Source: a virus
Length of the DNA: 31,722 bases
Strand: one strand, 5' to 3'
UHGV virus genome: UHGV-0068509
This document shows positions 20,189 to 30,699 of this stretch, piece by piece. How positions within the stretch are numbered: the stretch's first letter is position 1; the number at the start of each line of letters is the position of its first letter. Both the position numbers and the translations under genes were made by a program. The notes under the pieces were generated by a model that had not been told where the DNA came from, did no database searches, and saw only the letters and a program-made list of their open reading frames with translations.

Positions 20189-20264
20189 TGGTGCCGGTTA
20201 ACGGATTTGAACCGCTACCTATTCACTTACAAGGCGACCGCTCTACCATTGGAGCTAAACCAGC
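20189..20264 (-). tRNA. tRNA-Thr (anticodon UGU), 76 nt with encoded CCA
   Basis: Hand-folded cloverleaf: 7-bp acceptor stem (one G-U), 4-bp D stem with GG in loop, anticodon loop CT-TGT-AA, T loop TTCAAAT, discriminator A, CCA. Confidence 0.7.
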
Positions 20265-20269
20265 ATGTT

Positions 20270-20344
20270 TGGCGGGACAGCGTGGACTCGAACCACGATA
20301 AGAAGGTTAACAGCCTTCCGTAATGACCTTTATACGACTGACCC
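20270..20344 (-). tRNA. tRNA-Asn (anticodon GUU), 75 nt with encoded CCA
   Basis: Hand-folded: perfect 5-bp anticodon stem, loop CT-GTT-AA, perfect T arm CGTGG-TTCGAGT-CCACG, acceptor stem with one mismatch, 4-nt variable loop, CCA. Confidence 0.6.
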
Positions 20345-27229: not shown

Positions 27230-27934
27230 ATGGAAAACAAAGATATTCGCAAATCGAATCTGGCGTTTTTGCTAGATGAGCATAAAAAAATCGCGGGTAA
27301 CACTAATGCAAGCTTTGCCGATAAGCTTGGGGTTAGCCCTTCTCAACTCACGCAAGTCTCCGGTGAAAAAAGCACTCGAAACATAGGGGATAAACTAGCA
27401 AGAAAATTTGAAGCCGCACTTGGGTTACCTAATGGGTGGCTTGATTTGGTACATGATGTAACACCAATTGCATCATGCTCAGATTCTTTAACTTTTGTCG
27501 GTCAGGTAAGAAAAGGGTTAGTGCGCGTGGTTGGTGAGGCAATTCTTGGTGTTGATGGTGCCATCGAGATGACCGAAGAGCGCGATGGGTGGCTCAAAAT
27601 TTATAGCGATGATCCAGATGCCTTTGGCCTTCGTGTGAAAGGAGACAGCATGTGGCCTAGAATAAAATCAGGAGAATATGTACTCATTGAGCCTAACACC
27701 AAAGTATTCCCGGGTGATGAGGTGTTTGTCAGAACCGTTGAAGGACACAACATGATTAAGGTTCTTGGCTATGACAGAGATGGAGAATACCAGTTTACAA
27801 GCATCAACCAGGACCATAGGCCAATAACGTTGCCTTATCATCAAGTAGCAAAGGTGGAGTATGTGGCTGGTATTCTGAAGCAATCTCGCCATCTGGATGA
27901 CATCGAGGCAAGGGAGTGGCTGAAAAGTTCGTGA
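27230..27934 (+). CDS. cI: CI-type prophage repressor (HTH plus LexA-like S24 autopeptidase domain)
   Basis: 234-aa ORF; N-terminal HTH (ASFADKLGVSPSQLTQV), C-terminal GDSMWPRIKSGEYVLIE...MIKVL (Ser/Lys dyad). Confidence 0.9.
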   Translation: MENKDIRKSNLAFLLDEHKKIAGNTNASFADKLGVSPSQLTQVSGEKSTRNIGDKLARKFEAALGLPNGWLDLVHDVTPIASCSDSLTFVGQVRKGLVRVVGEAILGVDGAIEMTEERDGWLKIYSDDPDAFGLRVKGDSMWPRIKSGEYVLIEPNTKVFPGDEVFVRTVEGHNMIKVLGYDRDGEYQFTSINQDHRPITLPYHQVAKVEYVAGILKQSRHLDDIEAREWLKSS

Positions 27935-28360
27935 CTTCATCGTCACATAGCTGATAGCCAATGGCCTGAAGAGACGTTTGGGTGAAGAGGATAGATGGAG
28001 TTTAATGGCCATGAGTATCACGCGGTCAAAAAGAAGTTCATCTATTCATTGAAAGCATAAGGCCATCTGAGTATATCCGTAATGATCTGGATATTGTCTA
28101 TAACATCAATGACCGGACAATAGATATCGGTGAGCAGCGTCCTGTATGGCAGGGTGAGGCAGGTGAAAAAAACGTCCTGCCATCAACAAGAATCAAGTGC
28201 ATCAGCTCTCTGGACAGATGGAAAATTTATTGGATGCAAAAAGATATGAAATAACACCTGTATAGCACGGAGCTTTCTCTGACCGATGCACTTGAAGTTG
28301 TTAGGGCTGACCCAGCCTGCTGTTTCTTTAGGTAAGAGAAAAGAGATTTAGGAGATGAAA

Positions 28361-28387
28361 GGTCGCAGAGGTGCGGCCTTTTTTATT
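28361..28387 (+). terminator. Intrinsic terminator downstream of cI
   Basis: Hairpin GGTCGCA-GAGG-TGCGGCC (one G-U) followed by TTTTTTATT. Confidence 0.65.
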
Positions 28388-28413
28388 GAGAGTGGATCTT
28401 GAACGGAAATTCT

Positions 28414-28455
28414 CAAGACTTGAGTCTTGCATGCAAATCAATTCCTGGATAAACT
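28414..28455 (+). promoter_or_regulatory. Putative sigma70 promoter of the 173-aa gene with overlapping 16-bp palindrome
   Basis: -35 TTGCAT (28427-28432), 17-nt spacer, -10 TAAACT (28450-28455); palindrome CAAGACT-TG-AGTCTTG (28414-28429) overlaps the -35. Confidence 0.5.
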
Positions 28456-28487
28456 CGATCTGAGTCAATAACTTAGAGAGAGAGCAA

Positions 28488-29009
28488 ATGGCAAAGTCAA
28501 ACGTTAGCGTGCAGGCATTCAAGGACTTCCTTGAAGAGCTTATGTCGCTGAACATAATGAAGGAGGCCACCGCTCGAAATTTAAAAAACTCATCCGCTCG
28601 CCTCTTAACGGTAGTCCAAGAAGAGGAAATGGGTGATGTTACTCAGCTTGATGTGAATGAGCTTGCCGAGCGATACATCAACGCAACTGAGCCGAAGCCT
28701 AGCGACAGCAGCATTACTGCATATAAAAGCCGCATGGAAAGTGCAATCAAAAAGTTTGTAGCTTTCCAGTCTGGTGAAGAAATCCCATACACTCCGATTG
28801 ACAAAGAATCCAGTGAGGAAAAAGATTTGACTGGCGAACCAACAAAAGTCGAAGGCAAGGCTAATGCACTTCATACCTATGATCTTCCAGTAGTTCTTCG
28901 ACCTGAATCAGGGGTTACAGTAACGATTAAAGGCATTCCTAACGATATCACAAACGAAGAAGCCGAACGCATCTCTTCAATTCTGAAGGTTTACGTTCGG
29001 CCTCAATAA
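28488..29009 (+). CDS. Hypothetical 173-aa soluble protein in the cI-pL immunity-region hotspot (rex/sieB-equivalent position); no family recognised
   Basis: ORF with purine-rich RBS and own promoter; no TM segments; acidic helical N-half and beta-rich C-half; flanked by terminators. Confidence 0.7.
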   Translation: MAKSNVSVQAFKDFLEELMSLNIMKEATARNLKNSSARLLTVVQEEEMGDVTQLDVNELAERYINATEPKPSDSSITAYKSRMESAIKKFVAFQSGEEIPYTPIDKESSEEKDLTGEPTKVEGKANALHTYDLPVVLRPESGVTVTIKGIPNDITNEEAERISSILKVYVRPQ

Positions 29010-29311
29010 TGCAAAAGCATTCAGCACAATGTCCAACTCCCCAGTCCGACATTGATGCTGTTTAACCAGAGCCTCCAAAAGGAGCCCTTGTTAAGGTACA
29101 CAATATTTGCGATGTAACCTTAGCGCGTCTGGTACATTTTTTCAAGCGGTTGTAGGGCTGCCGCCAATATGAGAAAACACAGATGTCTACATACAATTTG
29201 AATGACCAATTCGATCGAGAAGTTCATGTGAATGCCTATGAACGGATAAGGCATGGAAATCTTGAACATGTGTGTGAGCATTATCGCTCAAGGCCACACC
29301 GCTAATCATCA

Positions 29312-29339
29312 ACCCGGCCTCAGCGCCGGGTTTTCTTTG
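29312..29339 (+). terminator. Intrinsic terminator (tIMM-like) upstream of oL/pL
   Basis: Hairpin ACCCGGC-CTCAGC-GCCGGGT followed by TTTTCTTT. Confidence 0.65.
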
Positions 29340-29518: not shown

Positions 29519-29562
29519 TTTATCATTTTGCTATTGCCATTAATTTATCATTCCGATAAAGT
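29519..29562 (+). promoter_or_regulatory. oL/pL: operator sites with TTTATCA half-sites overlapping a candidate leftward-operon promoter
   Basis: TTTATCATTTTGCTATT and TTTATCATTCCGATAAA; -35 TTGCCA (29534-29539), 17-nt spacer, -10 TAAAGT (29557-29562). Confidence 0.55.
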
Positions 29563-29630: not shown

Positions 29631-29645
29631 GCGCTGACAAAGCGC
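29631..29645 (+). promoter_or_regulatory. nutL: nutL boxB hairpin
   Basis: GCGC-TGACAAA-GCGC, matching the P22-type boxB as I recall it; upstream of the N-like gene. Confidence 0.6.
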
Positions 29646-29678
29646 AATAACCAAAGTGAACTTTGGGGTGTGGTGAAG
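29641..29678 (+). repeat. Leader repeat A, copy 1 (38 bp; contains hairpin CCAAAGT-GA-ACTTTGG)
   Basis: Identical 38-bp copy at 29918-29955. Confidence 0.8.
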
Positions 29679-29874
29679 CCAGCTAGTCACTGGCAAGTGC
29701 TTACCTACTGTTGAGCGGTGAAGCGCTCCCAACGCTAGCAATAGCGTGGACGAGATGGGGAGCCGCGGGCGATAAGGCCGCCATAACGCGCACGTTGTCG
29801 CATGGAAAAATCACTGGGGTGCCGGTTATACCCCTCCGAATGAGACTCAACAAGCTGGAGCTAGACTACCAGCC

Positions 29875-29918
29875 ACCACACCACCAAAGTTCATCAGGAG
29901 GTCTATATGACACGCAGA
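29875..29918 (+). repeat. Leader repeat B, copy 1 (44 bp; contains RBS AGGAGG, ATG and the first four N codons)
   Basis: Identical 44-bp copy at 30056-30099, which is the genuine N start; this copy opens a mini-ORF MTRRAQ (29907-29927). Confidence 0.8.
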
Positions 29919-29955
29919 GCGCAATAACCAAAGTGAACTTTGGGGTGTGGTGAAG
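29918..29955 (+). repeat. Leader repeat A, copy 2
   Basis: Identical to 29641-29678. Confidence 0.8.
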
Positions 29956-30055
29956 GGTTCATGGACGGGAATATGTCGCACGTAAAGCGGCGAGGCCTGC
30001 GGGACTATTGCCGAATTGAAGTAGGCCGAAACAGGTCGAAATGGGTCTCCCACCT

Positions 30056-30099
30056 ACCACACCACCAAAGTTCATCAGGAGGTCTATATGACACGCAGA
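30056..30099 (+). repeat. Leader repeat B, copy 2 (genuine N translation-initiation region)
   Basis: Identical to 29875-29918. Confidence 0.8.
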
Positions 30100-30471
30100 A
30101 CTCAGTTCAAAGGCAATTCACGTTCTCGTCGTCGTGAGCGTTTAAAGGCAAAGGCATTAGCTAACGGCGTACTGGCCCGCGAAGAAGCAATAAGTTCAGA
30201 AGTATTACACCGCCCTACTCTAAGCAGAGCGCAGATTCAGGCTAAAGGTACTCACGAAACGCCTGAGCGCATAGAAGACGCTAAGCCAATTAAGTTCATG
30301 GCACAGGACGTGATCTGGCAACAGAAAGAATACAGACGCAATCTGGAGCGAGCGGCCATTGTGTACGCGAATGAGTTTGGACATAAGCAACCAGAAACTG
30401 GTGTATGTCTTCCAAACGTAGCCATTTACTCGGCAGGCTACCGGAAATCAAAACAACTGACGGCGAGGTAA
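30088..30471 (+). CDS. N: N-like early antiterminator (P22 gp24 family) with Arg-rich RNA-binding N-terminus
   Basis: MTRRTQFKGNSRSRRRERLKAKA (arginine-rich motif); C-terminus ...VAIYSAGYRKSKQLTAR resembles P22 gp24. Confidence 0.8.
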   Translation: MTRRTQFKGNSRSRRRERLKAKALANGVLAREEAISSEVLHRPTLSRAQIQAKGTHETPERIEDAKPIKFMAQDVIWQQKEYRRNLERAAIVYANEFGHKQPETGVCLPNVAIYSAGYRKSKQLTAR

Positions 30472-30474
30472 GTG

Positions 30475-30699
30475 ATGAATCAGACATACATTCCATCATG
30501 CTTGAGAAATCTGCCAAAGCAGAAAGCAAAGCCCCGCAAGCAAGCCATAAAGGACGCTAAGGCAGAGGTTATTGATCAAGCAATACAATTGCTCAGGGAG
30601 GAGTTAAGAAGTGGCAAGCTCGAAGGAATGATGATGCCCTATCAGCGCGGATATCTATCGGCGATTAGTAAGTTGGAAGTATTGAAGAGTGAATTATGA
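30475..30699 (+). CDS. Hypothetical early-left protein (74 aa)
   Basis: ATG 4 nt after the N stop with RBS GAGGT; basic, helical. Confidence 0.5.
   Translation: MNQTYIPSCLRNLPKQKAKPRKQAIKDAKAEVIDQAIQLLREELRSGKLEGMMMPYQRGYLSAISKLEVLKSEL

What the first reader, a model, noticed from the sequence alone, without database searches (positions are those of the whole stretch)
28361..29339. Self-contained 173-aa gene of unknown function in the cI-pL immunity hotspot
Between the cI stop and oL/pL, the position where lambdoid phages carry exclusion or abortive-infection genes such as rexAB or sieB, there is one isolated gene (28488-29009). It has an upstream terminator (28361-28387), its own sigma70-like promoter (TTGCAT, 17 nt, TAAACT), a 16-bp palindrome overlapping the -35 (CAAGACTTGAGTCTTG, suggesting repressor or autoregulatory control), and a downstream strong terminator (29312-29339). 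The product is soluble and acidic with a helical N-half and a beta-rich C-half, and I recognise no family. The promoter-gene-terminator arrangement in a lysogen-expressed region makes it a prime candidate for a prophage-encoded defence or exclusion function.
Basis: partly seen in the sequence, partly recalled or inferred. Interest (0 to 1): 0.75.

Follow-up and report, generated by a model that had tools for sequence, protein, structure and literature searches.

The report
Three-part prophage cassette in the rexAB slot
The "lone 173-aa gene" between cI and pL is real, but it belongs to a conserved, mobile cassette (own promoter, a protein with an integrase core-binding fold, a structured RNA found in no RNA family library, a small second protein, a terminator) that is identical in Shiga-toxin phage Sp5, where others could not delete the gene from a lysogen; its function is still unknown.

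Summary
The coordinates and sequence features in the finding are correct. The ORF (28488-29009) is 100% identical to Sp5/VT2-Sakai ORF23 (ECs1184) and belongs to phrog_2602, function unknown. It sits in the lambda rexAB slot and ends at the same terminator that follows rexB in lambda-like prophages.

It is not a single isolated gene. In 24 of 24 related loci it is followed by a 149-174 nt spacer, a small conserved ORF (here 29183-29305, 40 aa) and a terminator. The spacer has covarying helices and matches no Rfam family.

The cassette travels with unrelated cI alleles. It also occurs in nin regions, tail regions and chromosomal islands.

Published work could not delete ORF23 from an Sp5 lysogen, and found the protein in EHEC cultures.

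My best reading (about 0.4) is an autoregulated, addiction-like or abortive-infection-like cassette in which the 173-aa protein and the RNA restrain the small protein. No evidence shows a defence role, and no PADLOC model matches.

The parts
28027..28329 (+). Context only: decayed DUF3024-family gene (frameshift and internal stop) between cI and the cassette.
   Evidence: tblastn finds 81% identity over 101 aa to the intact SH2026Stx1 114-aa gene, with stops in frame. The intact homologue matches DUF3024, E 2.4e-31.
28357..28388 (+). Intrinsic terminator that ends the cI / pseudo-DUF3024 transcript and insulates the cassette from it.
   Evidence: Hairpin -15.9 kcal/mol, z -4.0, followed by a U-tract. 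The hairpin is conserved in Oslo and SH2026Stx1.
28414..28429 (.). Inverted repeat CAAGACT-TG-AGTCTTG, a candidate operator; its right arm overlaps the -35.
   Evidence: Read directly from the sequence and detected by script. It is identical in Oslo and partly kept in L026 and L032. Other clades carry different inverted repeats at the same place relative to the -35.
28427..28455 (+). Sigma-70-type promoter: TTGCAT, 17 nt, TAAACT.
   Evidence: Only 7 of 12 consensus positions, and missed by the scan. The same -35 / 17-18 nt / -10 arrangement is kept in diverged loci, for example TTGCAA-17-TAGAAT in L032 and TTGACT-17-AAAAAT in L037. No transcript mapping was available.
28488..29009 (+). 173-aa protein (Sp5 ORF23 / ECs1184; phrog_2602). 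Residues about 8-95 form a tyrosine-recombinase core-binding (SAM-like) four-helix domain. Residues 101-127 are an acidic disordered linker. Residues 130-170 form a beta-beta-alpha domain with no fold assignment.
29022..29060 (+). Long hairpin just after the stop codon. Its inner part is inverted in Oslo and L034 relative to the window and L026. The SH2026Stx1 and L038 clades have a canonical terminator hairpin at this position.
   Evidence: Sequence comparison.
29065..29164 (+). Core of the conserved structured spacer RNA. P2 pairs 29065-29070 with 29128-29133 and encloses a small hairpin and a long hairpin (about 29089-29125), followed by the conserved TAGCG motif. Then come a U-tract (29137-29142) with CAAG, hairpin P4 (29146-29164), and the Shine-Dalgarno GAGA (29171-29174).
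   Evidence: RNAalifold on the window clade predicts 34 pairs, 8 of them with compensatory changes. In the sister clades 91% of cells are paired against 37-46% in slid controls, and 18 pairs change on both sides against 9.6 +/- 1.8 in shuffles, with 0 of 500 shuffles reaching that. G-U wobbles fit the + strand. No Rfam match.
29183..29305 (+). 40-aa conserved small protein (phrog_21154), the obligate downstream partner of the 173-aa gene.
   Evidence: phrog_21154, E 5e-8. It is 57% identical over 28 aa to the SH2026Stx1 version. It occurs in the 46 phage records (44 Stx-type plus 2 Oslo) that also carry the closest copies of the 173-aa gene. Two other small-ORF types found at this position are under clear purifying selection.
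29311..29339 (+). Intrinsic terminator that closes the cassette. It is homologous to the terminator that follows rexB in lambda-like prophages.
   Evidence: The roughly 90-bp segment matches at about 88-93% identity in the listed rows, in about 1000 E. coli genomes, after rexB, DUF1828 and other cargo.

Best explanation
What is shown: window 28414-29339 is one horizontally mobile accessory cassette. In order it has a sigma-70 promoter overlapped by an inverted repeat, a 173-aa two-domain protein (integrase core-binding fold plus a small beta-beta-alpha domain), a roughly 160-nt structured RNA, a small protein (40 aa here; exchangeable 47- or 57-aa basic, Cys-containing types elsewhere), and a terminator. 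Here it occupies the lambda rexAB slot.

What is inferred: the cassette behaves like an autoregulated addiction or abortive-infection module, similar in logic to a toxin-antitoxin pair. The 173-aa protein would bind the inverted repeat and possibly the spacer RNA. Together with the folded leader it would keep the small downstream protein (the effector) silent in the lysogen. Loss of the 173-aa protein, or a trigger such as superinfection, would release the effector. This would explain why ORF23 cannot be deleted from an Sp5 lysogen even though the cassette is unrelated to the cI/Cro switch.
For: Architecture:
- 24 of 24 loci have gene, 149-174 nt spacer, small ORF and terminator.
- The small ORFs are coding: differences by codon position are 3/2/29, with 28 synonymous against 3 non-synonymous codons.
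- The W-type small ORF and the closest copies of the gene occur in the same 46 phage records.
- RNA helices covary.

Independence from immunity:
- The protein is 100% identical to the Sp5 copy and 77% to the Oslo copy, while the cI proteins are unrelated.
- The cassette also sits in nin and tail regions and in chromosomal islands.

Similarity in logic to toxin-antitoxin pairs:
- An inverted repeat overlaps the -35 in every clade, with clade-specific sequence.
- The upstream protein is acidic, pI 4.85, while two of the three small-ORF types are basic, pI 9.0 and 10.3.
- The small-ORF types are shuffled relative to the phylogeny of the large protein.
- ORF23/ECs1184 could not be deleted from Sp5; the authors wrote that this 'appears to be lethal' (PMC5155283).
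- ECs1184 was expressed from pBAD24 in Sakai and purified for the assay, with no toxicity mentioned, and the native protein was recovered in TRAPP of Sakai cultures (PMC7618764).
- In the window clade RNAalifold pairs the U-tract with the Shine-Dalgarno region of the small ORF.

Fold: core-binding domain, as in recombinase-derived prophage regulators.
Against: - No toxicity, DNA-binding or RNA-binding data exist for this cassette.
- The small proteins match no known toxin family.
- The 40-aa type in this window is neutral, not basic (pI 7.0).
- A 150-175 nt spacer, and in some clades a canonical terminator between the two genes, is unusual for a type II toxin-antitoxin pair.
- The N-domain here is acidic, which argues against simple DNA binding.
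- ECs1184 gave only background signal in a PNK RNA-crosslink assay.
- The Shine-Dalgarno-sequestering helix is only 62.6% paired in the sister clades.
- The proposed pseudoknot is not significant.
- The failed deletion was never followed up and could be technical or due to polarity.
- In one distant relative the small ORF is decayed while the RNA is kept.
Confidence: 0.4

Rival explanations
1. One reading: the 173-aa protein is itself a lysogen-expressed superinfection-exclusion or defence effector, functionally like RexAB, SieB or BstA. The downstream RNA and small ORF would be accessory or unrelated.
For: - It occupies the same slot and ends at the same terminator as rexAB and other variable cargo.
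- It has its own conserved promoter.
- The protein was detected in EHEC Sakai cultures.
- It has a moron-like distribution in many temperate phages.
Against: - No PADLOC model matches.
- The strict linkage to the RNA and small ORF shows the protein does not act as a lone gene.
- A pure defence gene should be deletable, but ORF23 was not.
- Distant homologues sit in non-phage chromosomal contexts.
Confidence: 0.15
2. The proposal of Mondal et al.: the protein is a regulator needed to keep the prophage repressed. It would be an auxiliary repressor derived from a recombinase DNA-binding domain, comparable in principle to SPbeta MrpR or phi3T SroF. Its loss would induce the phage and kill the host.
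For: - The gene is non-deletable in the Sp5 lysogen.
- It lies next to cI.
- Its own promoter carries an inverted-repeat operator.
Against: - The identical or near-identical cassette accompanies unrelated cI proteins, different N genes and different replication modules.
- In other phages it sits far from the immunity region, or outside phages altogether. This is hard to reconcile with a dedicated role in one phage's switch.
- The N-domain is acidic.
Confidence: 0.2
3. The functional product is mainly the structured RNA, acting as a cis-regulatory leader or a stable RNA-protein particle with the 173-aa protein. It would regulate host or phage transcripts, and the small ORF would be a regulated reporter-like passenger.
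For: - RNA helices covary, and the RNA is kept even where the small-ORF type is swapped or decayed.
- ECs1184 was near-significant in the TRAPP RNA-interactome, FDR 0.065.
- Distant homologues are also followed by hairpin-rich non-coding DNA.
Against: - The PNK assay signal was no higher than the sfGFP control.
- The small ORFs are under strong purifying selection.
- RNA homology beyond the Enterobacterales was not demonstrated.
Confidence: 0.15

Closest known systems
Lambda rexA-rexB, and other cargo of the cI-pL slot such as 933W stk (stk is recalled from memory, not tested here)
   Same: Same genomic position, downstream of cI and upstream of oL/pL, on the cI strand. It ends at a homologous terminator. 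It is expressed from a prophage.
   Different: No sequence or fold similarity. It has its own promoter rather than pRM/pLIT. It includes a structured RNA and a small second ORF. It is not restricted to this slot.
Type II toxin-antitoxin and addiction modules (general architecture)
   Same: The promoter is overlapped by an inverted repeat. An upstream acidic protein is followed by a small, often basic, protein. The downstream partners are shuffled. The cassette is mobile among phages and islands. The upstream gene could not be deleted.
   Different: The two genes are separated by a 150-175 nt structured spacer instead of being coupled. Neither protein is homologous to known toxins or antitoxins. 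Toxicity has not been demonstrated.
Core-binding (SAM-like) domain of tyrosine recombinases (lambda Int, XerC/D, IntI4), and the recombinase-derived prophage regulators SPbeta MrpR and phi3T SroF
   Different: There is no catalytic domain, and none could fit in 173 aa. There is an extra C-terminal beta-beta-alpha domain. The surface of this copy is acidic. It is not linked to att sites or an integrase.
RNA-controlled small ORFs in prophage or plasmid maintenance loci, such as P1 c4-icd-ant and hok/sok-type leaders (compared from memory)
   Same: A structured RNA lies directly upstream of a small ORF inside a maintenance or immunity region, and the ribosome-binding site may be occluded.
   Different: No antisense RNA is evident. 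There is no Rfam match, and the C4 and Sok models are in Rfam. The small proteins are not hydrophobic.
PHROG families phrog_2602 (large protein) and phrog_21154 / phrog_33859 (small proteins)
   Same: Direct membership: E 3.5e-102, 5e-8 and 4e-38.
   Different: All three are annotated 'unknown function', and their linkage is not recorded in the PHROG annotation returned here.

Membership tests
phrog_2602 (phage protein family of unknown function) | Full-length match to the family profile | tested here: met
   E 3.5e-102, residues 1-173 against profile positions 1-173.
Tyrosine recombinase / phage integrase | Core-binding (SAM-like) N-terminal helical domain | tested here: met
Tyrosine recombinase / phage integrase | C-terminal catalytic domain with the RHR triad and the tyrosine nucleophile | tested here: not met
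   The protein has 173 aa. After residue 100 there is only a disordered linker and a 46-aa beta-beta-alpha unit. No Phage_integrase hit appears in Pfam. It is therefore not a recombinase.
Known anti-phage defence systems (PADLOC-DB 2.0.0) | Match to any defence-protein model | tested here: not met
   No families match the 173-aa or the 40-aa protein at E up to 1.
Lambda Rex exclusion system | Homology to RexA or RexB | tested here: not met
   Only the position and the terminator are shared. The Pfam and PHROG hits are unrelated to Rex.
Type II toxin-antitoxin module | Two adjacent co-oriented genes under one autoregulated promoter | tested here: inconclusive
   The two genes are co-oriented and always linked, and an inverted repeat lies at the -35. 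However, they are separated by 174 nt of structured RNA, and some clades have a terminator between them. No transcript data were available.
Type II toxin-antitoxin module | Toxin or antitoxin belongs to a known superfamily | tested here: not met
   No Pfam, NCBIfam or PADLOC match beyond a weak zinc-finger-like hit for one small-ORF type.
Type II toxin-antitoxin module | The toxin arrests growth and the antitoxin neutralises it | not testable with these tools
   Only indirect evidence exists: ORF23 could not be deleted from the Sp5 lysogen (PMC5155283).
Any described RNA family (Rfam 15) | Covariance-model match to the spacer | tested here: not met
   No hit at gathering score. At permissive E-values there are no hits over the spacer itself; the only matches near it are chance-level ones (E above 1) over the small ORF and the terminator.

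The most novel reading that the evidence does not exclude
The cassette is a previously unrecognised three-component protein-RNA-protein system, carried by temperate phages and genomic islands. A recombinase-derived core-binding-fold protein and a dedicated structured RNA would jointly gate a small effector protein. This would be a new type of RNA-containing addiction or abortive-infection system, present in the clinically important Stx2 phage Sp5.
Probability: 0.2. Interest if true: 0.8.

Novelty: new variant of a known kind. Interest (0 to 1): 0.6.

Why it matters
- The cassette is carried unchanged by the Stx2-converting phage of E. coli O157:H7 Sakai and by many other Stx phages. Sequence covering at least 80% of it is present in 233 of 5,426 complete E. 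coli genomes, about 4%.
- The large protein's family has at least 652 clusters at 50% identity, and no member has a known function.
- If the cassette stabilises the prophage or kills cells that lose its control, it affects the maintenance and spread of Shiga-toxin phages.
- It would also add an RNA-containing module to the list of prophage addiction and defence systems.
- The work gives a concrete explanation to test for a published, unexplained result: that ORF23 cannot be deleted.
- It also identifies a candidate structured RNA absent from Rfam, and a stand-alone use of the integrase core-binding fold.

Tried and rejected
- PADLOC, Pfam, NCBIfam and PDB sequence searches gave no assignment for the large protein beyond weak SAM-like hits.
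- The C-terminal beta-beta-alpha domain alone matched nothing meaningful in Pfam or the PDB.
- The afdb50 fold library was unavailable.
- Rfam was searched at gathering score and at permissive E-values on the window and six loci and gave nothing over the spacer.
- Covariance model R1, built from one clade, recovered sister clades (L034, L038, L026 at E 0.005-0.05). It did not significantly detect the window, Oslo or SH2026Stx1 copies, nor the distant homologues' spacers. The window copy is therefore tied to the family by synteny, shared motifs (TAGCG, U-tract plus CAAG), its own RNAalifold result and hand parsing.
- A pseudoknot between the internal bulge and the P4 loop looked attractive by eye, but shuffle tests gave p = 0.015-0.57 per sequence. 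I dropped it as unsupported.
- A helix sequestering the Shine-Dalgarno sequence is predicted in the window clade but is only 62.6% paired in the other clades. I keep it as tentative.
- An attempt to place all clades in one register-true alignment failed because MAFFT shifted the 3' arms.
- Published EHEC prophage sRNAs (AsxR/AgvB/EcOnc and the Pas sRNAs) map to the late region, not to this locus.
- The minus-strand ORF annotated in VT2-Sakai (VT2-Sap22) overlaps the small ORF. I did not count it as part of the cassette, because conservation supports the plus-strand ORF.

Full report

The window carries a lambdoid early region in reverse orientation: a DnaB-like gene, O, cII and cro on the minus strand, then cI (27230-27934, Peptidase_S24) and N (30088-30471, N_peptide) on the plus strand. 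Between them lies the ORF in question, 28488-29009, 173 aa.

- The upstream hairpin 28357-28382 with its U-tract is stable: -15.9 kcal/mol, z -4.0. The hairpin is conserved in related phages.
- The downstream terminator 29311-29332 is strong.
- The repeat CAAGACT-TG-AGTCTTG (28414-28429) overlaps the -35 TTGCAT, followed by 17 nt and TAAACT.
- The promoter matches only 7 of 12 consensus positions, and the scanner did not list it. In diverged homologous loci the same -35 / 17-18 nt / -10 geometry is kept, often with better hexamers. An inverted repeat whose right arm overlaps the -35 recurs with clade-specific sequence. I take this as phylogenetic support for a promoter with an operator.

**2. 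What the finding missed.**

- The stretch between cI and the upstream terminator is a decayed DUF3024 gene: 81% identity over 101 aa to the intact SH2026Stx1 gene, with in-frame stops. The "upstream terminator" therefore closes the cI transcript rather than belonging to the cassette.
- The last roughly 90 bp, terminator included, match about 1000 E. coli genomes downstream of quite different cargo. In a lambda-like prophage the match lies directly after rexB, and elsewhere it follows a hypothetical gene plus a DUF1828 gene. This is the rexAB slot, and the "hotspot" idea is correct.
- The gene is not alone. In all 24 related loci examined, the homologue is followed after 149-174 nt by a small ORF and then a terminator.
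- The small ORF comes in three types:
  - a 40-44 aa type (window, Oslo, SH2026Stx1; phrog_21154);
  - a 57-aa basic type (phrog_33859);
  - a 47-aa CxxC-containing type.
- These ORFs are coding. Substitutions concentrate at third codon positions, for example 3/2/29, with 28 synonymous against 3 non-synonymous codons. The window's 40-aa product is 57% identical to the SH2026Stx1 one.
- In the phage database the 40-aa ORF occurs in 46 records, the 44 Stx-type and 2 Oslo records that also carry the closest copies of the large gene.
- The current RefSeq annotation of Sakai has no feature for the small ORF.

**3. The spacer is a structured RNA.**

- Across clades the spacer keeps the same order of elements. 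A hairpin follows the stop codon. A long composite stem follows, whose outer helix P2 changes completely between clades while staying complementary: ACCAGA/TCTGGT here, AGCTGC/GCAGUU, UGGGGAU/AUCCCCA, UCGGAGAU/AUCUCCGA, GGAGGA/UUCUCC. Inside it is an apical hairpin followed by a conserved TAGCG(G). Next come a U-rich tract with CAAG, a second hairpin P4, and the Shine-Dalgarno sequence and AUG of the small ORF.
- G-U pairs fit the plus strand.
- A covariance model built from one clade gave an alignment in which 91% of cells pair, against 37-46% when partners are slid. Eighteen pairs change on both sides against 9.6 +/- 1.8 in shuffles, and 0 of 500 shuffles reach that. P2 is 98% paired, with 6 of 7 pairs compensatory. 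One caveat: that alignment was fitted to the model.
- RNAalifold on the window clade alone (window, Oslo, L026, L034) independently predicts P2, the inner hairpins and P4, with 8 compensatory pairs. It also pairs the U-tract with the Shine-Dalgarno region. That last helix is weak in the other clades, at 62.6% paired.
- A tempting pseudoknot is not significant.
- Nothing in Rfam 15 matches the spacer.

**4. The protein.**

- It is 100% identical to VT2-Sakai/Sp5 ORF23 (ECs1184) and to copies in about 44 Stx-phage records. It is a full-length member of phrog_2602, function unknown.
- Close relatives are confined to the Enterobacterales. A profile search finds 652 representatives at 50% identity; the listed top hits are mostly 160-200 aa and matched end to end.
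- The conserved parts are an N-terminal roughly 100 aa (motif TARNLKNS; Y79, R82) and a C-terminal roughly 40 aa (PxxxRxxxxVxIxGxPxDLTxxEAxxI). A variable linker joins them.
- With the deeper alignment AlphaFold gives pLDDT 89.
- There is no catalytic domain, so it is not a recombinase.
- The C-terminal beta-beta-alpha unit has no assignment.
- This copy is acidic throughout, pI 4.85. In the wider family the linker is usually basic. Nucleic-acid binding is therefore inferred from the fold, not shown.

**5. Distribution.**

- The cassette is independent of immunity type. The window's cI is unrelated to those of Sp5 and Oslo, while the cassette protein is 100% and 77% identical to theirs.
- Homology to Sp5 starts just past cI and ends before pL.
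- Other homologues sit between cI and N (Oslo, SH2026Stx1, L026, L032, L037, L059). Others lie between replication genes and ninB/rusA-like genes (L039-L056). Still others lie beside tail genes (L038, L057, Yersinia phage YP3).
- Distant homologues (about 25% identity) occur as single insertions in chromosomal contexts next to hutU or guaA. They too are followed by hairpin-rich non-coding sequence and, in one case, a 68-aa ORF.
- The small-ORF types are shuffled relative to the tree of the large protein.

**6. Published evidence.**

- Mondal et al. (Sci Rep 2016, PMC5155283) deleted Sp5 genes systematically in K-12. They could not obtain ORF23 (ECs1184). They judged the deletion apparently lethal and suggested a role in maintaining lysogeny. 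They found no conserved domain.
- A 2025 NAR study (PMC7618764) recovered ECs1184 in the RNA-associated proteome of EHEC Sakai (FDR 0.065). It expressed the protein from pBAD24 in Sakai and saw only background RNA crosslinking.
- So the protein is made in EHEC Sakai cultures, it could be expressed from pBAD24 and purified with no toxicity mentioned, and it is at most a weak general RNA binder.

**7. Interpretation.**

The anatomy is shown: one insulated, mobile cassette of promoter/operator, core-binding-fold protein, structured RNA, small protein and terminator.

The mechanism is inferred. The cassette moves among unrelated immunity regions, and even outside phages. The lethal deletion is therefore more simply explained from within the cassette than by a role in one phage's switch. 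On this view the large protein, probably acting on its own operator and perhaps on the leader RNA, and the folded leader keep the small protein silent, and losing that control is harmful. That is the logic of an addiction or abortive-infection module (confidence about 0.4).

The rivals are:
- a recombinase-derived auxiliary repressor of the prophage (0.2);
- an RNA-centred regulator (0.15).

Against my reading:
- Toxicity has not been demonstrated.
- Neither protein is related to known toxins or antitoxins.
- The 40-aa variant here is not basic.
- The long spacer is unusual for such modules.
- The PNK result was negative.
- The deletion failure was never followed up.

**8. Novelty and verdict.**

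The gene itself is known as a hypothetical protein and a PHROG of unknown function. Neither the PHROG annotation nor the two papers that mention ECs1184 record the following, and I found no other description in the searches I ran:
- its core-binding fold;
- its obligate linkage to a small ORF and to a covarying RNA absent from Rfam;
- its independence from cI;
- the link to the published non-deletable phenotype.

I class it as a new variant of a known kind (prophage accessory or addiction-like cassettes). There is a modest chance (about 0.2) that it is a new three-component protein-RNA-protein system. Interest 0.6.

Noticed in passing
window 29638-30104: The N leader holds two tandem units. 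Each is bounded by a 41-nt box (..AACCAAAGTGAACTTTGGGGTGTGGTGAAG) and a 58-nt box (..CCACACCACCAAAGTTCATCAGGAGGTCTATATGACACGCAGA). These form a long closing stem just upstream of the N ribosome-binding site (z -4.0 and -3.3). The first unit carries a decoy N start (MTRRAQ*). The interiors differ (187 against 91 nt). No complete E. coli genome holds both units in tandem (best cover 77%), but each interior occurs alone elsewhere. This looks like a recombinational duplication of an RNase III-site-like leader or of a small cassette.
   Followed up: partly
window 29631-29645: GCGCTGACAAAGCGC forms a 5-bp stem with a 5-nt loop (z -3.9). From memory it matches the P22-type boxB of nutL. It lies about 70 nt downstream of the pL-like site at 29534-29562.
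   Followed up: no
window 28027-28329: Pseudogene of a DUF3024-family gene between cI and the cassette. The gene is intact in SH2026Stx1 and, as a divergent homologue (38% identity), in L032.
   Followed up: yes
window 29022-29060, compared with L003 3532-3570 and L034: The inner part of the hairpin after the stop codon is the exact reverse complement in Oslo and L034 relative to the window and L026. This indicates an inversion between the hairpin's own arms.
   Followed up: partly
L063 1741-2022, L066 3568-3850, L062 5544-5740: Distant homologues (about 25% identity, metagenomic, next to hutU or guaA) are also followed by 190-280 nt of GC-rich multi-hairpin sequence. L063 and L066 appear by eye to differ by compensatory changes, while the 68-aa ORF downstream is intact in L063 and broken in L066. 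No Rfam hit falls in these spacers (L062 and L063 searched), and model R1 finds no significant match.
   Followed up: partly
window 20192-20344 (minus strand): Two adjacent tRNA genes lie in the prophage late region.
   Followed up: no
window 30472-30699: A 75-aa ORF directly after N has no Pfam match. In Sp5 the gene at the corresponding position (ORF21/ECs1180) was the only other gene that could not be deleted. Homology between the two was not checked.
   Followed up: no
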